A stretch of DNA of 10,104 nt from a virus: UHGV virus genome UHGV-0254305, one strand, 5' to 3'. Position 1 is the first letter of the stretch. Every line of letters starts with the position of its first letter. The notes under the pieces are model-generated. The model saw only the letters and a list, made by a program, of their open reading frames with translations, made no database searches and was not told the DNA's origin. This document shows, piece by piece, positions 1-10,104 of this stretch. A program made the position numbers and the translations under genes.

Positions 1-191
1 GCCGTTACGCACCACCCCGTCAGTAGCTGAACAGGAGGGACAGCTGATAGAAACAGAAGCCACTGGAGCACCTCAAAAACACCATCATACACTAAATCAG
101 TAAGTTGGCAGCATCACCCAAAGGCCTTTAAAAATTATGTCTCCTACCATTCTGTTAATTTCAAAATCACTTAACTGTGAATAATCCATTG

Positions 192-368
192 TCATTTCCT
201 CGCACGATATCTTAGCCACCGGATATCCCACAGGTGAGCTGTGTAATTGAAGGTTTTTACGTCAGATTCTTTTGGGATTGGCTTGCGTTTATTTCTGGAG
301 CGTTTCGTTGGAAGGTATTTGCAGTTTTCGCAGATGATGTCGGTGAAACTTCGTCGCTGTCGCCTCAT
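192..368 (-). CDS. ninE: NinE-family small basic protein (58 aa)
   Basis: Minus-strand ORF whose internal ATG at 368 overlaps the methyltransferase stop as ATGA (366-368 / 365-367). The translation [58 protein letters not shown] matches my memory of lambda NinE (CxxC, basic). The ORF track extends it to 458 using an upstream start inside the preceding gene. Confidence 0.75.
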
Positions 369-892
369 GCCGCCCTCCTGACGCCCTGCCCGATCGCCAT
401 CAATGCCGCTTTGGATACGGTAGTAAACATCCGTCGAGGACTGATGAACGGTCGCCAAATCAGCAGCATGGAGCCTTTGCTGTTTCCCTTCTTCTCCAGC
501 CCTGTCGATGGTTCGATAAAATTAATCCGTCCATCAGTGATAATGCGAACTTCGTCGACACTCTCCAGAGCCTTGCTGAACCATCCGACTGACATATCCT
601 CTGGCACAAGCATAACTACCGTCTGTCGCTGTTGTATGCACTGCTCAGCAGCTTTTTCCACCCACGGCCTGATATTGCTGTACGGTGGGTTATTCCAGAT
701 TGCACCGTGGCTTACCCACTCAGAATTGAGCGCGTCGTCGGCCTCAGTTAGCCAGTGAGCACACAGAGCATTTTTGTCGCTCGCTGCCGAATCCAGCCAG
801 AATCCAAACTCAATATCCAGTGCATCAAAAAGCCAAAGCGGCGTTTGCCAGCAGTCCTTGTCGTGTGCTGGCGTATTTGATTTGATAGTCAT
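365..892 (-). CDS. Phage DNA N6-adenine methyltransferase (Dam-like, 175 aa)
   Basis: Translation [26 protein letters not shown]...WNNPPYS contains the DxxWQTP motif and the NPPY catalytic motif IV of amino-methyltransferases. Its start ATG (890-892) overlaps the ninB stop (889-891) as ATGA. It sits where lambda carries ninC/ninD. Confidence 0.8.
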
Positions 893-1329
893 GCAGCCCG
901 ATCTCCCCATCTCGCTTTCCACTCCAGAGCCAGTCTCGCTTCGTCTGACCACTTAACGCCACGCTCTGTGCCGAATGCCTGTATAAGCTCTAATAGCTCC
1001 GCAAATTCGCCTACACGCATCCTGCTGGTTGACTGGCCTATTACCACAAAGCCATTCCCGGCAAGGTTAGGAACAACATCCTGCTGCTTTAATGCTGCGG
1101 TAAACACACACTTCCAGCTTTCTGCATCCAGCCAGCGACCATGCCATTCAACCTGACGAGAGACGTCACCTAAGCAGGCCCATAGCTTCCTGTTTTGGTC
1201 TAAGCTGCGGTTGCGTTCCTGAATGGTTACTACGATTGGTTTGGTTGGGTCTGGAAGGATTTGCTGTACTGCGTGAATAGCGTTTTGCTGATGTGCTGGA
1301 GATCGAATTTCAAAGGTTAGTTTTTTCAT
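889..1329 (-). CDS. ninB: NinB recombination protein (146 aa)
   Basis: Translation MKKLTFEIRSPAHQQNAIHAVQQILPDPTKPIVVTIQERNRSLDQNRKLWACLGDV... matches lambda NinB from memory. ATG at 1327-1329 (minus) is preceded by a GAGGGA ribosome-binding site; the ORF-track start at 1347 is a TTG six codons upstream. Confidence 0.9.
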   Translation of the reverse strand: MKKLTFEIRSPAHQQNAIHAVQQILPDPTKPIVVTIQERNRSLDQNRKLWACLGDVSRQVEWHGRWLDAESWKCVFTAALKQQDVVPNLAGNGFVVIGQSTSRMRVGEFAELLELIQAFGTERGVKWSDEARLALEWKARWGDRAA

Positions 1330-1341
1330 GACTTCCCTCTC

Positions 1342-1378
1342 CCCCAAATAAAAAGGCCTGCGATTACCAGCAGGCCTG
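1342..1378 (-). terminator. tR2: Intrinsic terminator, tR2-like (between ren and ninB)
   Basis: On the minus strand: stem AGGCCTGC / GCAGGCCT (1354-1377) followed by TTTTTATTT. This is the position where lambda has tR2. Confidence 0.6.
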
Positions 1379-1402
1379 TTATTAGCTCAGTAATGTAGAT
1401 GG

Positions 1403-1693
1403 TCATCTTTTAACTCCATATACCGCCAATACCCGTTTCATCGCGGCACTCTGGCGACACTCCTTAAAAATCAGGTTCGTGCTCATCTTTCCTTCCCGTT
1501 CTTCCCTGGTAGCAAACCGGTAATACACCGTTCGCCAGACCTTACCTTCGATAACCAGAAGACCTGCCCGTGCCATTTTAGCCGCGGCCTGATTTATGCT
1601 GGTTACTGTTGCGCCTGTTAGCGCGGCAACGTCCGGCGCACAGAAGCTATTATGCGTCCCCAGGTAATGAATAATTGCCTCTTTGCCCGTCAT
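1403..1693 (-). CDS. ren: Ren protein (96 aa)
   Basis: Translation MTGKEAIIHYLGTHNSFCAPDVAALTGATVTSINQAAAKMARAGLLVIEGKVWRTVYYRFATREEREG... matches lambda Ren from memory. ATGA overlap with the P stop. Confidence 0.9.
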   Translation of the reverse strand: MTGKEAIIHYLGTHNSFCAPDVAALTGATVTSINQAAAKMARAGLLVIEGKVWRTVYYRFATREEREGKMSTNLIFKECRQSAAMKRVLAVYGVKR

Positions 1694-2391
1694 ACACTTG
1701 CTCCTTTCAGTCCGAACTTAGCTTTAATTTCTGCGATCTTCGCCAGAGCCTGTGCACGATTTAGAGGTCTACCGCCCATAACAGGAAGTTGTTTTACTGG
1801 TTCAGGTATCGTCTCACCACGGTTAATTCGCGCTGTCATACAGGTCAGTTCATCGGCAGCCTTGCGCCGTAATTCCGCATCAGTAAGCGCATTGGCCCGC
1901 ATGTTCTGATACAGGTTGGTAACCAGCCAGTAGTGCGCGTTTGATTTCCACGGATAAGACTCCGCATCCGGATACAGGCCTCGCTTCCGGCAATACTCGT
2001 AAACCATATCAACCAGCTCGCTGACGTTTGGCAGTCCGGCGATAACGGATGCTTCTTCCCGGCACCATGCAACAAACTGCCCGGGTGATGGCAGAAATGG
2101 TCGATTCTGCCGACGGGCTACGCGCATTCCTGCGTTAACCTGTTCCATTGTGGTGATCCCGTTTTCCCGGAAAGCCAGAACCCACTGGCGGCGGATTTCG
2201 TTCAGTTCGTTCTGGTCACGGTTAGCCAGACTCGCCGGGAAAGTTGCCAGTAACTGGCTGAACACACCGTTGATGATCTGCGCTACCTGCTGTACCTGTG
2301 GCTTTTCGTCGTACTGTTCCGGCATGTTGTTGGCGATCCGACGCATCTGCTCACGGTCAAAGTTAACCATCTGTGCGGCGATGTTTTTCAT
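1690..2391 (-). CDS. P: Replication protein P (DnaB helicase loader, 233 aa)
   Basis: Translation MKNIAAQMVNFDREQMRRIANNMPEQYDEKPQVQQVAQIINGVFSQLLATF... matches lambda P from memory. ATGA overlap with the O stop at 2388-2391. Confidence 0.95.
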   Translation of the reverse strand: MKNIAAQMVNFDREQMRRIANNMPEQYDEKPQVQQVAQIINGVFSQLLATFPASLANRDQNELNEIRRQWVLAFRENGITTMEQVNAGMRVARRQNRPFLPSPGQFVAWCREEASVIAGLPNVSELVDMVYEYCRKRGLYPDAESYPWKSNAHYWLVTNLYQNMRANALTDAELRRKAADELTCMTARINRGETIPEPVKQLPVMGGRPLNRAQALAKIAEIKAKFGLKGASV

Positions 2392-3287
2392 AGATCCACC
2401 CCGTAAATCCAGTCAGTGTTTGTCAGGTCGAGTTTTGGTTTTCCGGCTGTCACGCCAGCCTGTTGCTTGTTACGGTTGATTTCGAGCTGGGTCCACTTGT
2501 CGCGGAGTTTGGCCGGACTCAGCACGTTACCGGACCAGAAGTTGTCCTGGCAGGCCCAGCGGAAAAGCACACACATATCGCGGTGGTTACGTCCGTCACG
2601 TTCACGCATCAGGCGGATATCGTTAGCCCACCCAGCAAAATTCGGTTTTCTGGCTGATGGCGCGATGGTCTTCACCATGTCAAACATCCACTCTGCGGCG
2701 GTCAGGTCTTCTGCTGTTCCCCACTTACTGCCGCTCTGAATTGCAGCATCCGGTTTAACCACAGAAAGATCGTTTTCTGGCTGGTCAGAGGATTCGCCAG
2801 AATTCTCGGACGAATAATCTTTTCTTTTTTCTTTTGTAATAGTGTCTTTTGTGTCCCCCTGTTTTGAGGGATAGCAATCCCCCAATTTGAGGGATGTTTT
2901 ATCCCTCGTTTTAGGGGATTTTCCCTCGTTTTGAGGGATACACCATTCTGAGATGTTTTTATTTGGTCCAAACATGCCGCCTTGCTGCTTGATAATATTC
3001 ATTCTGACGAGTTCTAACTTGGCTTCATTGCACCGTTTGACAGGTAACTTTGTAATCTCGCTAAGTTGAGAATCGGTGATTCTGTCCATTGGTTTATTCC
3101 ACCCATAGGTTTTACGCAGAATGGCAAGCAGCACTTTAAACTGTCGCTTGGTCAGATCTGCGCCCGAATAAGCCTCAAGCAGCATATTTGATAGTCTGGC
3201 GTAACCATCATCGAGATCTGCCACATTACGCTCCTGTCCGGCAAAGTTACCTCTGCCGAAGTTGAGTATTTTTGCTGTATTTGTCAT
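2388..3287 (-). CDS. O: Replication initiator protein O (299 aa)
   Basis: Translation MTNTAKILNFGRGNFAGQERNVADLDDGYARLSNMLLEAYSGADLTKRQFKVLLAILRKTYGWNKPMDRITDSQLSEITKLPVKRCNEAKLELVRMNIIKQ... matches lambda O from memory. AGGAG ribosome-binding site upstream; the ori iterons are embedded in the middle of the gene. Confidence 0.95.
   Translation of the reverse strand: MTNTAKILNFGRGNFAGQERNVADLDDGYARLSNMLLEAYSGADLTKRQFKVLLAILRKTYGWNKPMDRITDSQLSEITKLPVKRCNEAKLELVRMNIIKQQGGMFGPNKNISEWCIPQNEGKSPKTRDKTSLKLGDCYPSKQGDTKDTITKEKRKDYSSENSGESSDQPENDLSVVKPDAAIQSGSKWGTAEDLTAAEWMFDMVKTIAPSARKPNFAGWANDIRLMRERDGRNHRDMCVLFRWACQDNFWSGNVLSPAKLRDKWTQLEINRNKQQAGVTAGKPKLDLTNTDWIYGVDL
2810..2938. repeat. ori: Lambda-type replication origin: four ~18-bp iterons plus adjacent AT-rich region
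   Basis: Four tandem iterons of the form TCCCTC-N-GAGGGA at 2854-2871, 2878-2894, 2901-2918 and 2922-2938, each internally palindromic. They are flanked at 2810-2853 by an AT-rich tract (ttttcttttttcttttgtaatagtgtcttttg). This is the classic organisation of ori-lambda inside O. Confidence 0.85.
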
Positions 3288-3290
3288 AAT
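3262..3290 (+). promoter_or_regulatory. Po promoter for oop RNA
   Basis: -35 TTGAGT (3262-3267), 17-bp spacer, -10 CATAAT (3285-3290); transcription would start near 3297 and run antisense into the cII 3' end. Confidence 0.5.
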
Positions 3291-3296
3291 GACTCC

Positions 3297-3372
3297 TGTT
3301 GATAGATCCAGTAATGACCTCAGAACTCCATCTGGATTTGTTCAGAACGCTCGGTTGCCGCCGGGCGTTTTT
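3297..3372 (+). ncRNA. oop: oop antisense RNA (about 76 nt, antisense to the cII 3' end)
   Basis: Lies downstream of the Po-like promoter and ends at a GC-rich hairpin (ttgccgccgggcg) followed by TTTTTTATT at about 3350-3372. Position relative to cII and O matches lambda oop. Ends are approximate. Confidence 0.55.
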
Positions 3373-3613
3373 TATTGGTGAGAATCGCAGCAACTTGTCG
3401 CGCCAATCGAGCCATGTCGTCGTCAACGACCCCCCATTCAAGAACAGCAAGCAGCATTGAGAACTTTGGAATCCAGTCTCTCTTCCACCTGCTGATCTGC
3501 GACTTATCAACTCCCACAGCTTCCGCTGTCTTCTCAGTTCCAAGCATTGCGATTTTGTTAAGCAACGCACTCTCGATTCGTAGTGCCTCGTTGCGTTTGT
3601 TTGCACGAACCAT
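3320..3613 (-). CDS. cII: Transcriptional activator CII (97 aa)
   Basis: Translation MVRANKRNEALRIESALLNKIAMLGTEKTAEAVGVDKSQISRWKRDWIPKFSMLLAVLEWGVVDDDMARLARQVAAILTNKKRPAATERSEQIQMEF matches lambda CII from memory. ATG at 3611-3613 (minus). Confidence 0.95.
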   Translation of the reverse strand: MVRANKRNEALRIESALLNKIAMLGTEKTAEAVGVDKSQISRWKRDWIPKFSMLLAVLEWGVVDDDMARLARQVAAILTNKKRPAATERSEQIQMEF

Positions 3614-3626
3614 ATGTAAGTATTTC
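3588..3626 (+). promoter_or_regulatory. PRE-like CII-dependent promoter
   Basis: TTGC-N6-TTGC CII-binding direct repeat at 3591-3604 on the plus strand, overlapping the cII start codon region as in lambda PRE. Transcription would run toward cro (antisense) and cI. The -10 and start site are not resolved. Confidence 0.5.
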
Positions 3627-3692
3627 CTTAGATAACAATTGATTGAATGTATGAAAATAAATGCATACACCATAGGTGTGGTTTAATTGGAT

Positions 3693-3724
3693 GCCCTTTT
3701 TCAGGGCTGGGATGTGTAAGAGCG
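3693..3724 (-). promoter_or_regulatory. nutR: nutR (boxA + boxB N-utilisation site)
   Basis: On the minus strand: boxA CGCTCTTACA (3715-3724) and the boxB hairpin GCCCTGAAAAAGGGC (3693-3707), downstream of cro. Just beyond it is an ACACC-TAT-GGTGT hairpin in the tR1 position. Confidence 0.8.
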
Positions 3725-3732
3725 GGAATGTC

Positions 3733-5087
<1,355 letters not shown>

Positions 5088-5137
5088 TCCCCACCTCAAT
5101 CTCGATAACCAAAAAACAAACTATTTTCCGTTTAAAA

Positions 5138-5206
5138 ACAATGGAGTTTGTTTTTCACGCCCCTTTTTTACAATATTTCTTGTTTACAACATACAATCTT
5201 TCTTGT
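5138..5206. promoter_or_regulatory. OL: 434-type left operators OL3, OL2, OL1
   Basis: ACAA-N6-TTGT sites at 5138-5151 (ACAATGGAGTTTGT), 5170-5183 (ACAATATTTCTTGT) and 5193-5206 (ACAATCTTTCTTGT), upstream of nutL and N. Confidence 0.85.
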
Positions 5207-5211
5207 AATTT
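5183..5211 (+). promoter_or_regulatory. PL promoter
   Basis: -35 TTTACA (5183-5188), 17-bp spacer, -10 TAATTT (5206-5211), overlapping OL1/OL2; transcribes toward nutL and N. Confidence 0.5.
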
Positions 5212-5251
5212 TAAGCCATCAGCAGGACGCACTGACCACCATTGAAGGTGA

Positions 5252-5282
5252 TGCTCTTAAAAATTAAGCCCTGAAGAAGGGC
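5252..5282 (+). promoter_or_regulatory. nutL: nutL (boxA-like + boxB)
   Basis: boxB hairpin GCCCTGAAGAAGGGC at 5268-5282, preceded by the boxA-like TGCTCTTAA at 5252-5260 (consensus CGCTCTTA). Confidence 0.8.
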
Positions 5283-5440
5283 AGCATTCAAAGCAGAAGG
5301 CTTTGGGGTGTGTGATACGAAACGAAGCATTGGCCGGAAGTGCGAATCCGGATTAGCTGCAAATGAGCCAATCGTGGGGTGTTTTCGTTCAGGACTACGA
5401 CTCACACACACCACCAAAGCTAACTGACAAGAGAATCCAG

Positions 5441-5764
5441 ATGGATGCACAAACACGCCGCCGCGAACGTCGCGCAGAGAAACAGGCTCAATGGAAAGTA
5501 GCAAATCCCCTGTTGGTTGGGGTAAGCGCAAAACCAGTTAACCGCCCTATTCTCTCGCTGAATCGCAAACCGAAATCACGAGTAGAAAGCGCACTGAATC
5601 CGATAGACCTTACAGTGCTGGCTGAATACCACGAACAGATTGAAAGCAACCTGCAACGTATTGAGCGCAAGAATCAGCGCACATGGTACAGCAAGCCTGG
5701 CGAACGCGGCATAACATGCAGTGGACGCCAGAAAATTAAGGGAAAATCGATTCCTCTTACCTAG
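5441..5764 (+). CDS. N: Antitermination protein N (107 aa)
   Basis: Translation MDAQTRRRERRAEKQAQWKVANPLLVGVSAKPVNRPILSLNRKPKSRVESALNPIDLTVLAEYHEQIESNLQRIERKNQRTWYSKPGERGITCSGRQKIKGKSIPLT carries the arginine-rich boxB-binding motif and matches lambda N with a few substitutions (from memory). The ORF-track start at 5363 is an upstream in-frame extension. Confidence 0.95.
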   Translation: MDAQTRRRERRAEKQAQWKVANPLLVGVSAKPVNRPILSLNRKPKSRVESALNPIDLTVLAEYHEQIESNLQRIERKNQRTWYSKPGERGITCSGRQKIKGKSIPLT

Positions 5765-6316
5765 TTACTTAGATATTGGCCTTGGCTTTATCTCAATATT
5801 ATATGGATCATAGCTGGCAACTAATTCAGTCCAGTAAATATCCTCAATAGGGAATAATATATGCTTCCCGTTCCATCGGGAAAAAGTTTTGTTCAACACA
5901 CCAAGCTCAATCAACTCACTAATGTATGGGAATTGTTTTGATGTAACCACATACTTCCTGCCTTCATTAAGGGCTGCGCACAAAACCATAGATTGCTCTT
6001 CTGTAAGGTTTTGAATTACCGATCGCACTTTATCGTTTTGCATCTTAATGCGTTTTCTTAGCTTAAATCGCTTATATCTGGCGCTGGCAATAGCTGATAA
6101 TCGATGCACATTAATTGCTAGCGAAAATGCAAGAGCAAAGACGAAAACATGCCACACATGAGGAATACCGATTCTCTCATTAACATATTCAGGCCAGTTA
6201 TCTGGGCTTAAAAGCAGAAGTCCAACCCAGATAACGATCATATACATGGTTCTCTCCAGAGGTTCATTACTGAACACTCGTCCGAGAATAACGAGTGGAT
6301 CCATTTCTATACTCAT
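5765..6316 (-). CDS. sieB: Superinfection exclusion protein B (membrane protein, 183 aa)
   Basis: Translation MSIEMDPLVILGRVFSNEPLERTMYMIVIWVGLLLLSPDNWPEYVNERIGIPHVWHVFVFALAFSLAINV... has two hydrophobic helices and matches lambda SieB from memory. Convergent with N, with stops at adjacent bases 5764/5765. ATG at 6314-6316; the ORF track starts at a TTG one codon upstream (6319). Confidence 0.85.
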   Translation of the reverse strand: MSIEMDPLVILGRVFSNEPLERTMYMIVIWVGLLLLSPDNWPEYVNERIGIPHVWHVFVFALAFSLAINVHRLSAIASARYKRFKLRKRIKMQNDKVRSVIQNLTEEQSMVLCAALNEGRKYVVTSKQFPYISELIELGVLNKTFSRWNGKHILFPIEDIYWTELVASYDPYNIEIKPRPISK

Positions 6317-6443
6317 CAAACTGTAGGGGTTGTAATAGTTTATCCGATTTCTCGCTGTAGGGGTACACGAGAACCACCGAGCCTGATGTGGTTAAAAGAC
6401 AGGCACAATCTTTACTACCGCAATCCACTATTTAAGGTGATAT

Positions 6444-6530
6444 ATGGAAGAAGAATTTGAAGAGTTCGAAGAGCATCCGCAGGATGTAATGGAACAGTAC
6501 CAGGACTATCCGTATGACTACGACTATTGA
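6444..6530 (+). CDS. Small acidic protein, lambda orf28-like (28 aa)
   Basis: ATG at 6444 with an AAGGTGA ribosome-binding site at 6434-6440. Translation MEEEFEEFEEHPQDVMEQYQDYPYDYDY. Below the ORF-track length cutoff; in the position of lambda orf28 between sieB and ral. Confidence 0.45.
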   Translation: MEEEFEEFEEHPQDVMEQYQDYPYDYDY

Positions 6531-6693
6531 TAAGAATCAATGGTGTGGACAATTCAAGCGATGCAATGGATGCAAGCTGCAATCGGAATGCATGGTTAAG
6601 CCTGAAGAAATGTTTCCTGTAATAGAAGATGGGAAATATGTCGATAAATGGGCAATACGAACGACGGCAATGATTGCCAGAGAACTTGGTTAA
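6514..6693 (+). CDS. ral: Ral restriction-alleviation protein (59 aa as read here)
   Basis: Translation MTTTIDKNQWCGQFKRCNGCKLQSECMVKPEEMFPVIEDGKYVDKWAIRTTAMIARELG matches lambda Ral from memory. It overlaps the orf28 3' end in another frame. I recall lambda Ral as 66 aa; here no start codon exists further upstream before the in-frame stop at 6487. Confidence 0.8.
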   Translation: MTTTIDKNQWCGQFKRCNGCKLQSECMVKPEEMFPVIEDGKYVDKWAIRTTAMIARELG

Positions 6694-6850
6694 CAGAACA
6701 ACAAAGCTGCCTGATAGTGGCCTTTATTTTTGGCATAAATAACAGAATAAACACTGCACTGTGTATTCATTCCAACGAGTGAATACACGGAGCAATGTCG
6801 CTCGTAACTAAACAGGAGCCGACTTGTTCTGATTATTGGAAATCTTCTTT

Positions 6851-6877
6851 GCCCTCCAGTGTGAGGGCGATTTTTTA
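6851..6877 (+). terminator. Intrinsic terminator candidate upstream of ea10 (tL2-like)
   Basis: Stem GCCCTC (6851-6856) / GAGGGC (6863-6868) with loop CAGTGT, followed by GATTTTTTAT. Confidence 0.55.
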
Positions 6878-6896
6878 TCTATGAGGATATGAACAG

Positions 6897-7265
6897 ATGT
6901 CAAACATCAAAAAATACATCATTGATTACGACTGGAAAGCATCAATAGAAATTGAAATCGACCATGACGTAATGACAGAGGAAAAACTTCACCAGATTAA
7001 TAATTTCTGGTCAGACTCTGAATACCGACTCAATAAACACGGCTCTGTATTAAATGCTGTATTAATCATGCTGGCGCAATATGCTCTGCTTATAGCAATT
7101 TCGAAAGACTTAAATGCATATGGTGTTGTTTGTGAGTTCGACTGGGATGATGGAAATGGTCAGGAAGGATGGCCTCCAATGGATGGTAGTGAAGGAATAA
7201 GAATTACCGATATCGATACATCAGGAATATTTGATTCAGATGATATGACTATCAAGGCCGCCTGA
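6897..7265 (+). CDS. ea10: Ea10 (Ssb-like early protein, 122 aa)
   Basis: Translation MSNIKKYIIDYDWKASIEIEIDHDVMTEEKLHQINNFWSDSEYRLNKHG... matches lambda Ea10 from memory. GAGGA ribosome-binding site upstream. Confidence 0.9.
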   Translation: MSNIKKYIIDYDWKASIEIEIDHDVMTEEKLHQINNFWSDSEYRLNKHGSVLNAVLIMLAQYALLIAISKDLNAYGVVCEFDWDDGNGQEGWPPMDGSEGIRITDIDTSGIFDSDDMTIKAA

Positions 7266-7290
7266 GTGCGGTTTTACCGCATACCAATAA

Positions 7291-7315
7291 CGCTTCACTC
7301 GAGGCGTTTTTCGTT
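7291..7315 (+). terminator. Intrinsic terminator candidate between ea10 and cIII (tL3-like)
   Basis: Stem CGCTTC / GAGGCG (one G-U pair) with loop ACTC, followed by TTTTTCGTT. Confidence 0.4.
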
Positions 7316-7337
7316 ATGTATAAATAAGGAGCACACC

Positions 7338-7502
7338 ATGCAATATGCCATTGCAGGGTGGCCTGTTGCTGGCTGCCCTTCCGAATCTTTACTTGAACGA
7401 ATCACCCGTAAATTACGTGACGGATGGAAACGCCTTATCGACATACTTAATCAGCCAGGAGTCCCAAAGAATGGATCAAACACTTATGGCTATCCAGACT
7501 AA
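7338..7502 (+). CDS. cIII: CIII (FtsH/HflB inhibitor, 54 aa)
   Basis: Translation [54 protein letters not shown] matches lambda CIII. AAGGAG ribosome-binding site at 7326-7331. Confidence 0.95.
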   Translation: MQYAIAGWPVAGCPSESLLERITRKLRDGWKRLIDILNQPGVPKNGSNTYGYPD

Positions 7503-7614
7503 ATTCACTATCGCCACTTTTATTGGCGATGAAAAGATGTTTCGTGAAGCCGTCGACGCTTATAAAAAATGGATATTAATGCTGAAACTGAGATCAAGCA
7601 AAAGCATTCACTAA
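7471..7614 (+). CDS. kil: Kil (host cell-division inhibitor, 47 aa)
   Basis: Translation [47 protein letters not shown] matches lambda Kil from memory. It overlaps the cIII 3' end by 32 nt in another frame, as in lambda. Confidence 0.9.
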
Positions 7615-7985
7615 CCCCCTTTCCTGTTTTCCTAATCAGCCTGGCATTTCGCGGGCGATATTTTCACAGCTATTTCAGGAGTTCAGCCATGAACGCTTAT
7701 TACATTCAGGATCGTCTTGAGGCTCAGAGCTGGGCGCGTCACTACCAGCAGATCGCCCGAGAAGAGAAAGAGGCAGAACTGGCAGACGACATGGAAAAAG
7801 GCCTGCCCCAGCACCTGTTTGAATCGCTATGCATCGATCATTTGCAACGCCACGGGGCCAGCAAAAAAGCCATTACCCGTGCGTTTGATGACGATGTTGA
7901 GTTTCAGGAGCGCATGGCAGAACACATCCGGTACATGGTTGAAACCATTGCTCACCACCAGGTTGATATTGATTCAGAGGTATAA
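7569..7985 (+). CDS. gam: Gam (RecBCD inhibitor; 138-aa long form, 98-aa short form from internal ATG at 7689)
   Basis: Translation ...[98 protein letters not shown] matches lambda Gam from memory. The internal start at 7689 has a strong CAGGAG ribosome-binding site; the 7569 start has none. Confidence 0.9.
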
Positions 7986-7990
7986 AACGG

Positions 7991-8776
7991 ATGAGTACAG
8001 CACTCGCAACGCTGGCTGGGAAGCTGGCTGAACGAGTCGGCATGGATTCTGTCGACCCACAGGAACTGATCACCACTCTTCGCCAGACGGCATTTAAAGG
8101 TGATGCCAGCGATGCGCAGTTCATCGCATTGCTGATCGTCGCCAACCAGTACGGTCTTAATCCGTGGACGAAAGAAATTTACGCCTTCCCTGATAAGCAG
8201 AACGGCATCGTTCCGGTGGTGGGCGTTGATGGCTGGTCCCGCATCATCAACGAAAACCAGCAGTTTGACGGCATGGACTTTGAACAGGACAACGAATCCT
8301 GCACATGCCGGATTTACCGCAAAGACCGCAATCATCCGATCTGCGTTACCGAGTGGATGGATGAATGCCGCCGCGAACCATTCAAAACCCGCGAAGGCAG
8401 AGAAATCACGGGGCCGTGGCAGTCGCATCCCAAACGGATGTTACGGCATAAAGCCATGATTCAGTGTGCCCGTCTCGCCTTCGGATTTGCTGGTATCTAT
8501 GACAAGGATGAAGCCGAGCGCATTGTCGAAAATACCGCATACACTGCAGAACGTCAGCCGGAACGCGACATCACTCCGGTTAACGATGAAACCATGCAGG
8601 AGATTAACACTCTGCTGATCGCCCTGGATAAAACATGGGATGACGACTTATTGCCGCTCTGTTCCCAGATATTTCGCCGCGACATTCGCGCATCGTCAGA
8701 ACTGACACAGGCCGAAGCAGTGAAAGCTCTTGGATTCCTGAAACAGAAAGCCACTGAGCAGAAGGTGGCAGCATGA
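7991..8776 (+). CDS. bet: Bet (Red-beta single-strand annealing protein, 261 aa)
   Basis: Translation [99 protein letters not shown]... matches lambda Beta from memory. Confidence 0.97.
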
Positions 8777-9453
8777 CACCGGACATTATCCTGCAGCGTA
8801 CCGGGATCGACGTGAGAGCTGTCGAACAGGGGGATGATGCATGGCACAAATTACGGCTCGGCGTCATCACCGCTTCAGAAGTTCACAACGTGATAGCAAA
8901 GCCCCGATCAGGAAAGAAGTGGCCTGACATGAAAATGTCCTACTTCCACACCCTGCTAGCTGAGGTTTGCACCGGTGTGGCTCCGGAAGTTAACGCTAAA
9001 GCGCTGGCCTGGGGAAAACAGTACGAGAACGACGCCAGAACCCTGTTTGAGTTCACTTCCGGCGTAAATGTTATTGAATCCCCGATCATCTATCGCGACG
9101 AAAGTATGCGCACCGCCTGCTCTCCCGATGGTTTATGCAGTGACGGCAATGGCCTTGAGCTGAAATGCCCGTTTACCTCCCGGGATTTCATGAAATTCCG
9201 GCTCGGTGGTTTCGAGGCCATAAAGTCGGCTTACATGGCCCAGGTGCAGTACAGCATGTGGGTGACGCGAAAAGATGCCTGGTACTTTGCCAACTATGAC
9301 CCGCGTATGAAGCGTGAAGGACTGCATTATGTCGTGGTCGAACGGGATGAAAAATACATGGCTGGTTTTGACGAAATGGTGCCAGAGTTCATCGAAAAAA
9401 TGGACGAGGCACTGGCTGAAATTGGTTTTGTATTTGGGGAGCAATGGCGATGA
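8773..9453 (+). CDS. exo: Exo (Red-alpha 5'-3' exonuclease, 226 aa)
   Basis: Translation [92 protein letters not shown]... matches lambda exonuclease from memory. ATGA overlap with the bet stop. Confidence 0.97.
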
Positions 9454-9632
9454 AACATCCTCACGATAATATCCGCGTAGGCACGATCACTTTCGTCTAC
9501 TCCGTTACGAAGCGAGGCTGGGTATTTCCCGGCCTTTCTGTTATCCGAAATCCCCTGAAAGCACAGCGGCTGGCTGAGGAGATAAATAATAAACGGGGAG
9601 CTGTATGCACAAAGCATCTCCCGTTGAGTTAA
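9450..9632 (+). CDS. Lambda orf60a-like hypothetical protein (60 aa)
   Basis: ATG at 9450 overlaps the exo stop as ATGA and lies 8 nt downstream of a GGGGAG ribosome-binding site. Translation [60 protein letters not shown]. The ORF-track start at 9444 is too close to the ribosome-binding site. Confidence 0.8.
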
Positions 9633-9796
9633 GAACGAGTATCGAGATGGCACATAGCCTCGCTCAAATTGGAGTCAGGTTTGTGCCAATACCAGTAGAA
9701 ACAGACGAAGAATTTCATACGTTAGCCGCATCCCTTTCACAAAAGCTGGAAATGATGGTGGCGAAAGCAGAAGCAGATGAGAGAGACCAGGTATGA
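9605..9796 (+). CDS. Lambda orf63-like hypothetical protein (63 aa)
   Basis: ATG at 9605 with a GGGGAG ribosome-binding site at 9594-9599. Translation [63 protein letters not shown]. Confidence 0.8.
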   Translation: MHKASPVELRTSIEMAHSLAQIGVRFVPIPVETDEEFHTLAASLSQKLEMMVAKAEADERDQV

Positions 9797-9806
9797 CAAC
9801 CACGGA

Positions 9807-9992
9807 ATGCATTTTTCTGGCAGCGGGCTTCATATTCTGTGTGCTTATGCTTGCCGACATGGGACTTGTTCAATGACACCTCAGCAGGAAAACGCCCTTC
9901 GCAGCATTGCCCGTCAGGCTAATTCTGAAATCAAAAAAGCCAGACAGCAGTTTCCGGATAAAAACGTCGATGACATTTGCCGTAGCGGGTAA
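9807..9992 (+). CDS. Lambda orf61-like hypothetical protein (61 aa); alternative organisation possible
   Basis: ATG at 9807 gives MHFSGSGLHILCAYACRHGTCSMTPQQENALRSIARQANSEIKKARQQFPDKNVDDICRSG (61 aa, matching the name of lambda orf61). The ribosome-binding site is weak, and an overlapping ATGA-coupled 27-aa ORF exists (see findings). Confidence 0.6.
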   Translation: MHFSGSGLHILCAYACRHGTCSMTPQQENALRSIARQANSEIKKARQQFPDKNVDDICRSG

Positions 9993-10104
9993 TGACTCCA
10001 ACTTATTGATAGTGTTTTATGTTCAGATAATGCCCGATGACTTTGTCATGCAGCTCCACCGATTTTGAGAACGACAGCGACTTCCGTCCCAGCCGTGCCA
10101 GGTG

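What the first reader, a model, noticed from the sequence alone, without database searches (positions are those of the whole stretch)
5252..5443. N leader differs from canonical lambda: boxA-like TGCTCTTAA, long-range stem, and weakened N ribosome-binding site
nutL boxB (5268-5282) is canonical, but the boxA position reads TGCTCTTAA, with T where the consensus has C (my recollection of lambda is CGCTCTTAA). The sequence before the N start reads AAGAG (5429-5433) rather than the AGGAG I recall for lambda. A long-range complementary pair, CTTTGGGGTGTGTGA (5301-5315) with TCACACACACCACCAAAG (5402-5419), can form a bulged duplex of about 15 bp enclosing about 85 nt, in the position of the known RNase III-processed N-leader structure. 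Together these suggest altered N translation or antitermination efficiency at nutL in this phage.
Basis: partly seen in the sequence, partly recalled or inferred. Interest (0 to 1): 0.35.

Follow-up and report, generated by a model that had tools for sequence, protein, structure and literature searches.

The report
Common natural allele of lambda N leader
This is the ordinary leader of the antiterminator gene N of a lambda/434-like prophage, in a version also found base for base in many E. coli prophages; only its weaker ribosome-binding site could plausibly change function.

Summary
Relative to lambda J02459, the window has T, not C, at the first boxA base (5252) and AAGAG, not AGGAG, before the N start (5429-5433). 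A long-range duplex (5299-5314 with 5405-5421, bulged A5413) encloses about 90 nt.

None of this marks an unusual phage:
- The first boxA base varies freely among nutL copies (T 56, G 38, C 32 of 126). T is the E. coli rrn boxA base, and published consensus and structural work treat this position as tolerant.
- The duplex is not a difference from lambda. It is the conserved closing stem of the N leader, kept with compensatory changes across five unrelated internal cassettes.
- AAGAG is a real weakening of Shine-Dalgarno pairing (predicted -2.9 vs -7.4 kcal/mol). It is also a common allele: 108 of 743 E. coli records, 17 of 81 viral contigs, always with T at boxA, and present in isolated phage ev099.
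- The window's 226-nt leader is identical in 9 viral contigs and in at least 12 complete E. coli genomes, one of them an apparently complete prophage next to ybhC.

Verdict: already known and of low interest. In passing: the 9.87-kb phage segment lies between two IS1 copies.

The parts
5218..5218 (+). Inferred first base of the pL transcript (AUCAGCAGGACGC...), downstream of 434-type operators ACAATATTTCTTGT (5170-5183) and ACAATCTTTCTTGT (5193-5206)
   Evidence: Homology with the annotated start of the pL transcript in phage 434 OL657226 and with lambda; operators read directly. Inferred, not mapped.
5252..5259 (+). nutL boxA, TGCTCTTA (lambda: CGCTCTTA)
   Evidence: Position 1 is polymorphic among 126 nutL copies: T 56, G 38, C 32.
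5260..5267 (+). boxA-boxB spacer AAAATTAA, identical to lambda nutL
   Evidence: This spacer is the NusA-SKK binding segment of nutL in PMC2724277.
5268..5282 (+). nutL boxB hairpin GCCCTGAAGAAGGGC, identical to lambda
   Evidence: 5-bp stem with pentaloop in every fold.
5284..5290 (+). GCATTCA, predicted to pair with TGGATGC (5442-5448) across the N start codon. Probability 0.94 in lambda but 0.13 in this allele.
   Evidence: Thermodynamic prediction only.
5299..5314 (+). 5' arm of the conserved long-range duplex, GGCTTTGGGGTGTGTG. Contains the GGTGTGTG motif that I recall being called boxC of nutL (from memory; no held paper gives the boxC sequence).
5315..5404 (+). Internal, variable part of the leader hairpin (lambda-type cassette). 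Carries several SNPs linked to the AAGAG allele, e.g. GCAAATGAGCC and AATCGT.
   Evidence: Replaced by unrelated cassettes in other leader classes.
5405..5421 (+). 3' arm of the long-range duplex, CACACACC-A-CCAAAGCT, with bulged A5413
5429..5433 (+). N Shine-Dalgarno region AAGAG (lambda AGGAG), 7 nt before the ATG
   Evidence: Predicted pairing with the 16S 3' end is -2.9 vs -7.4 kcal/mol. The allele is exact in 108 of 743 E. coli records.
5441..5764 (+). N gene, 107 aa, lambda-type; differs from lambda N by A20V, K65E and I107T

Best explanation
The region is the standard leader of the pL transcript of a lambda-type N gene, here joined to a 434-type immunity region.

In order, it contains:
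- nutL: boxA, the NusA-binding spacer and the boxB hairpin that binds N;
- a large hairpin closed by a 16-bp bulged duplex, which is the RNase III-sensitive structure of the N leader;
- the N ribosome-binding site.

By analogy with lambda (inferred, not shown here), N and the Nus factors assemble on nutL for antitermination and also repress N translation from the same RNA. RNase III cleavage in the closing duplex separates nutL from the ribosome-binding site and relieves that repression.

The three 'differences' are one common natural haplotype, not a special feature of this element:
- T at boxA position 1 is neutral or slightly rrn-like.
- The stem is the same as in lambda.
- The G-to-A change in the Shine-Dalgarno sequence probably lowers intrinsic initiation of N translation somewhat. 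This may be partly offset by a more open ribosome-binding site in the predicted fold.
For: Identity with lambda:
- The leader is 94.8% identical to lambda and 95.7% to phage 434, with the annotated nutL, ribosome-binding site and N in the same places.

Frequency of the allele:
- The leader from +1 to the ATG (226 nt) is identical in 9 IMG/VR contigs. The 231-nt query is 100% identical in at least 12 complete E. coli genomes, and 50 records are at 99% or above.
- One carrier, NZ_AP021892.1, is an apparently complete prophage next to ybhC with int, xis, Q, lysis, head and tail genes.
- AAGAG is exact in 108 of 743 E. coli records and in 17 of 81 sampled leaders, always together with T at boxA. 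It is also present in isolated phage ev099.

boxA position 1:
- T 56, G 38, C 32 among 126 nutL copies.
- The literature has U, C and G at position 1 of BoxA elements in use in E. coli rrn, lambda and Aquifex, and a consensus that starts at the following G.

The stem:
- Predicted in the window and in lambda with probability of about 1.
- Duplex energy is -27.0 (window) vs -27.4 kcal/mol (lambda).
- Retained in five leader classes with unrelated inserts.
- In 9 distinct arm sets, 16 pairs are 100% paired and 6 pairs show compensatory change, against 49% or less paired for slid controls.
- A G-C to U-A swap is seen in 434-type leaders.

Ribosome-binding site:
- Predicted pairing with the anti-Shine-Dalgarno sequence is -2.9 vs -7.4 kcal/mol.
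- Predicted unpaired probability of the Shine-Dalgarno bases rises from 0.46 to 0.67.
Against: - Nothing functional was measured. RNase III cleavage, N autorepression and the effect of AAGAG on translation are all inferred from lambda.
- The primary papers (Kameyama 1991; Wilson 1997, 2002) are not held in the library. I rely on recollection plus the summary in PMC5725501.
- AAGAG is rare among deposited phage isolates (ev099 only, 2 of 47 records) compared with about 15-20% in prophage data. It could therefore carry a phenotypic cost or benefit rather than being neutral.
Confidence: 0.85

Rival explanations
1. The T-boxA / AAGAG haplotype is a selected 'low-N' variant. The weaker Shine-Dalgarno sequence lowers N synthesis and shifts the timing of early gene expression or the lysis-lysogeny balance. 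That would explain why it is common in resident prophages but rare among plaque-isolated phages.
For: - Predicted Shine-Dalgarno pairing drops from -7.4 to -2.9 kcal/mol.
- In this sample AAGAG always travels with T at boxA and with the internal SNPs.
- It is found in 108 of 743 E. coli records and 17 of 81 viral contigs, against 2 of 47 phage records, both of them ev099.
Against: - Linkage is expected for a 230-nt segment inherited as a block.
- The frequency contrast is small and confounded by clonal sampling and by many duplicate lambda records.
- Predicted folding makes the ribosome-binding site more open in this allele, so the net effect on translation is unknown.
- No expression data exist.
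Confidence: 0.15
2. The substitutions are decay mutations in a defective, IS1-bracketed prophage remnant in which N is no longer under selection.
For: - The phage segment (about 118-9987) is flanked by IS1 ends and lacks int, Q, lysis and structural genes.
- N carries A20V in its RNA-binding motif, seen in no other N allele of the sample.
Against: - The whole leader is base-for-base identical in many other prophages and viral contigs, including an apparently complete prophage.
- The same boxA and Shine-Dalgarno variants are in phage ev099.
- The leader variants therefore predate this remnant. Only A20V could be private decay.
Confidence: 0.03
3. boxA (CUCUU) pairs directly with the N Shine-Dalgarno sequence (AAGAG). 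In this allele nutL would then occlude the ribosome-binding site by RNA-RNA pairing, the G-to-A change turning a U-G wobble into U-A.
For: - The 5-bp pairing appears in the window's minimum-energy fold and in the alignment consensus fold.
- Its predicted probability rises from 0.014 in lambda to 0.15 in the window, and to 0.38 for lambda carrying the G-to-A change.
Against: - It is only 5 bp closing a large multiloop, and its probability is low even in the window.
- In vivo boxA is bound by NusB-NusE.
- The only variation at this helix is one-sided, so nothing supports it by covariation.
- Complementarity between a CU-rich boxA and a purine-rich Shine-Dalgarno sequence is expected by composition.
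Confidence: 0.04

Closest known systems
Bacteriophage lambda pL leader: nutL, RNase III-sensitive hairpin and N ribosome-binding site (J02459 35356-35583)
   Same: Same order and spacing of elements. boxB, the spacer and the first N codons are identical. The same 16-bp closing duplex with a bulged A is present. Overall identity is 94.8%.
   Different: - boxA position 1 is T, not C.
- The Shine-Dalgarno sequence is AAGAG, not AGGAG.
- One extra T lies upstream of boxA (CATTGAAGG vs CATGAAGG).
- There are about 8 substitutions inside the hairpin.
- The operators upstream are 434-type.
Phage 434 (OL657226) and lambda imm434 N leaders
   Same: Same 434-type operators and pL, same leader architecture, 95.7% identity, same extra T.
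   Different: 434 has G at boxA position 1, AGGAG, and a compensated U-A pair in the stem where the window has G-C.
Escherichia phage ev099 (LR597635) N leader
   Same: Closest deposited phage for this segment (97.3%). It carries both T at boxA and AAGAG, plus the same internal SNPs.
   Different: Lambda-like rather than 434-like operators, and a few single-base differences.
E. coli rrn leader antitermination region (boxA UGCUCUUUA, boxC, RNase III stem flanking 16S)
   Same: The first boxA base is U, as in the window. A boxA-bound Nus complex sits upstream of one strand of a long-range RNase III duplex (PMC2724277, PMC8632103).
   Different: rrn boxA has the extra U (CUUUA). The element order is boxB-boxA-boxC. 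No N protein is involved, and the duplex encloses 16S rRNA rather than about 90 nt.

Membership tests
Lambda-type nut site (nutL) | 15-nt boxB hairpin with a GAAGA loop, identical or near-identical to lambda nutL boxB | tested here: met
   GCCCTGAAGAAGGGC at 5268-5282 is identical to lambda and folds as a 5-bp stem with a pentaloop.
Lambda-type nut site (nutL) | boxA core GCUCUUA located 8 nt upstream of boxB | tested here: met
   TGCTCTTA at 5252-5259, spacer AAAATTAA at 5260-5267. Only the first base differs from lambda, and that base is polymorphic.
Lambda-type nut site (nutL) | Lies in the pL transcript upstream of a cognate N gene that has the arginine-rich motif | tested here: met
   N at 5441-5764. 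Residues 1-22 are identical to lambda N except A20V. The pL start is inferred by homology.
Lambda-type nut site (nutL) | N- and Nus-dependent antitermination activity | not testable with these tools
   Requires reporter assays.
rrn-type consensus BoxA (GYTCTTTAANA, PMC5725501) | Perfect match to the consensus | tested here: not met
   The window reads GCTCTTAAAAA: A in place of the third T, the same deviation as lambda boxA. It is therefore a lambda-type boxA, not an rrn-type one, despite the U at position 1.
RNase III-processed N-leader hairpin | Long-range duplex of 16 bp or more between nutL and the N ribosome-binding site, homologous in position to lambda's | tested here: met
RNase III-processed N-leader hairpin | Pairing maintained in evolution (covariation) | tested here: met
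   16 pairs are 100% paired in 9 distinct arm sets and 6 pairs show changes on both sides, while slid controls are 49% or less paired. The short 160-nt class has its own 16-bp arms.
RNase III-processed N-leader hairpin | Cleavage by RNase III in vivo or in vitro | not testable with these tools
   Known for lambda from literature I recall but could not read here (searches failed).
Canonical Shine-Dalgarno site of lambda N (AGGAG) | At least 5 contiguous bases complementary to the 16S 3' end, 5-9 nt before the ATG | tested here: not met
   AAGAG gives only 3 contiguous pairs, predicted at -2.9 vs -7.4 kcal/mol.

The most novel reading that the evidence does not exclude
The linked T-boxA / AAGAG haplotype is a functionally distinct 'low-N' leader allele. 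It is maintained in resident prophages (about 15-20% of lambda-type N leaders) but is counter-selected in phages recovered as plaque formers. It could act through weaker ribosome binding, and perhaps through a boxA:Shine-Dalgarno pairing that adds to N/Nus-mediated autorepression.
Probability: 0.1. Interest if true: 0.35.

Novelty: already known. Interest (0 to 1): 0.08.

Why it matters
It matters little beyond annotation. The result shows that lambda's own C at boxA position 1 is a minority state and that the base is free to vary among T, G and C. It also shows that the closing duplex of the N leader is the part under selection, kept with compensatory changes even when the whole interior is swapped. 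If the AAGAG allele were shown to lower N translation, it would be a natural variant for studying how N dosage tunes early lambdoid development. That would be an incremental point.

Tried and rejected
- Literature: I searched for the primary papers on RNase III and the N leader. Four searches gave nothing directly usable, and searches turned up only reviews that held nothing on the N leader when read. Look-ups of PMC126142, PMC275398, PMC3545037 and PMC6311387 all failed. The exact lambda cleavage positions are therefore not cited.\n- Rfam: the gathering-threshold scan found no family covering the N leader, only the cIII thermoregulator elsewhere in the window.\n- Corrected error: a first arms-only alignment (A3) had a typing error in the window row and put the 160-nt class in the wrong register. 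It was replaced by A4.\n- Withdrawn idea: I first thought the window gained an extra A5315-U5402 pair over lambda. Re-indexing shows A5315 faces A5404, so this is withdrawn. The extra CA only permits an alternative slipped register.\n- First boxA:Shine-Dalgarno probability calculation was off by one position and was redone.\n- Rejected explanation: decay in the IS1-flanked remnant does not explain the leader variants, because identical leaders exist in other prophages.

Full report
**What the window is.** The window holds the early region of a lambdoid phage. N, cI and the recombination genes are on the + strand. Whole-window searches give 98% identity over 117-9987 to phage Chlobot, lambda imm434, phage 434 and lambda-like E. 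coli prophages. The operators upstream of pL are 434-type: ACAA-N6-TTGT at 5170-5183 and 5193-5206 (434 annotation). N (5441-5764, 107 aa) is lambda-type and differs from lambda N by A20V, K65E and I107T.

**Check of the observation.** Every coordinate in the finding is correct.
- Aligned with lambda J02459, 434, ev099, Chlobot, Huey and HK542, the window has T at the first boxA base where lambda has C and 434 has G.
- It has AAGAG where lambda has AGGAG.
- boxB, the 8-nt spacer and the start of N are invariant.

The long-range duplex is in the minimum-energy fold of both the window and lambda, with pair probabilities of about 1.0. The favoured register is 16 bp, G5299-G5314 with C5405-T5421 and a bulged A5413. 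Below it sits a 3-bp CAG/CUG extension (5294-5296 with 5424-5426). A helix of 16 bp or more that encloses at least 60 nt occurred in 2 of 400 dinucleotide shuffles.

- Together with the reference phages and the window there are 126 nutL copies: T 56, G 38, C 32, A 0. Lambda's C is therefore a minority state (the least frequent of the three bases seen) and the window's T the commonest.
- PMC2724277 gives rrn boxA as UGCUCUUUA and lambda boxA as CGCUCUUA. [quoted passage not shown]
- PMC5725501 derives a functional consensus, GYTCTTTAANA, that begins at the following G.
- PMC3177189 reports G (Aquifex), U (E. coli) and C (lambda) at position 1. It says the difference at position 1 is tolerated and that positions 8-9 account for lambda's weaker NusB-NusE binding.

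The T at 5252 gives no reason to expect impaired antitermination. If anything it is one step towards the rrn sequence. The window's nutR (3693-3724, - strand) has the usual CGCTCTTA.

**The stem.** The duplex is not a difference from lambda. The arm-arm duplex energy is -27.0 kcal/mol in the window and -27.4 in lambda.

The sampled leaders fall into five length classes: 160, 207-210, 222, 248 and 318 nt from GGTGA to ATG+14. Their interiors are unrelated, yet each closes with its own 16-17-bp duplex on the shared GGCUUUG / CAAAGCU base. Four of the five classes keep the bulged A.

On an arms-only alignment of 9 distinct arm sets (A4):
- 16 pairs are paired in every sequence;
- 6 pairs show changes on both sides;
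- controls with the partner slid by 1-3 columns are 49% or less paired.

Within the lambda-type class, 434-like leaders carry a G-C to U-A swap (12 vs 8 distinct sequences).

This is the position of the RNase III-sensitive hairpin of the lambda N leader. I recall this from Kameyama 1991 and Wilson 1997 and 2002, which the library does not hold. PMC5725501 summarises that N and the Nus factors at nutL repress N translation and that the intervening leader is highly structured. Cleavage itself cannot be tested here.

**The ribosome-binding site.** AAGAG weakens predicted pairing with the 16S 3' end from -7.4 to -2.9 kcal/mol. In the thermodynamic model the same change has three further effects:
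- it removes a small GGA:UCC hairpin over the Shine-Dalgarno sequence;
- it lowers the probability of a GCAUUCA:UGGAUGC pairing across the start codon from 0.94 to 0.13;
- it raises the unpaired probability of the Shine-Dalgarno bases from 0.46 to 0.67.

The net effect on translation is therefore uncertain.

The allele is common:
- 17 of 81 sampled leaders, always with T at boxA;
- an exact 51-mer match in 108 of 743 E. coli records;
- among deposited phages, only ev099 (2 of 47 records).

This last contrast is weak and confounded by sampling. It is the one hint that the allele might not be neutral.

**How ordinary the allele is.** The window's 226-nt leader, from +1 to the ATG, is identical in 9 viral contigs. 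The 208-nt boxA-to-ATG segment is the commonest single sequence in the sample, 13 copies including the window. It occurs with both 434-type and lambda-type operators. The 231-nt query is 100% identical in at least 12 complete E. coli genomes. One of these, NZ_AP021892.1, carries it in an apparently complete prophage next to ybhC, with integrase, Q, lysis, head and tail genes.

**Mechanism (inferred by homology).** pL transcription starts near 5218. N binds boxB. NusB-NusE bind boxA and NusA binds the spacer, forming the antitermination complex that also represses N translation in cis. The 16-bp duplex is the RNase III target; cleavage uncouples nutL from the ribosome-binding site. The haplotype here probably behaves like lambda's, apart from a possibly lower intrinsic initiation rate for N.

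**Rivals.** Three alternatives are scored in the rival section:
- a selected 'low-N' allele (0.15);
- decay within the IS1-bounded remnant (0.03), refuted for the leader by the identical copies elsewhere;
- a direct boxA:Shine-Dalgarno pairing (0.04).

**Verdict.** The feature is already known and of low interest.

Noticed in passing
window 1-118 and 9988-10104: Both ends of the window are IS1 ends, 100% identical to 'IS1-like element IS1A family transposase' regions in thousands of E. coli records. Both lie on the - strand: the left end shows IRL plus the start of insA, the right end shows IRR. Every phage or prophage match to the window stops at 117 and 9987. The 9.87-kb early region (nin genes to beyond exo) is therefore a prophage fragment bracketed by two directly oriented IS1 copies, lacking int, Q, lysis and structural genes.
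   Followed up: partly
window 5498-5500 (N codon 20): N carries A20V inside the arginine-rich boxB-binding motif, two residues after W18. This change was seen in no other N allele of the roughly 100 sampled. K65E and I107T are common variants.
   Followed up: partly
loci L006, L041, L014, L011, L026 and relatives; corresponds to window 5315-5404: Lambda-type N leaders come in five length classes (160, about 208, 222, 248 and 318 nt from boxA to ATG+14) with unrelated internal cassettes. All classes keep the flanks and a 16-17-bp closing duplex. This looks like mosaic exchange inside an RNA hairpin with the stem preserved.
   Followed up: partly
phage collection vs E. coli genomes: The AAGAG ribosome-binding-site allele is exact in 108 of 743 E. 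coli records that carry this N start region, but among deposited phages it is found only in ev099 (2 of 47 records). This may reflect sampling or clonality, or it may reflect a phenotype.
   Followed up: no
window 3693-3724, - strand: nutR has the canonical CGCTCTTA boxA and GCCCTGAAAAAGGGC boxB. Its spacer is CACATCCCA, against CACATTCCA in lambda.
   Followed up: partly
window 7325-7383, + strand: Rfam Lambda_thermo (cIII thermoregulator element) matches at 88.5 bits over the full model length.
   Followed up: no
window 5765-6319, - strand: A 184-aa ORF on the opposite strand abuts the N stop codon. It corresponds to the SieB superinfection exclusion gene as annotated in Chlobot and NZ_AP021892.1. 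Phage 434 instead has a 'Nun C-terminal peptide-containing protein' gene on the same strand as N at this position.
   Followed up: no
phage record MW057783.1 (H14): A record named 'Campylobacter phage CJLB-4' (48,361 bp) matches the window with exactly the same coverage and identity as lambda, in both the 231-nt leader search and the whole-window search, and its record coordinates are offset from lambda's by a constant 80 bases. It looks like lambda DNA deposited under another name.
   Followed up: no
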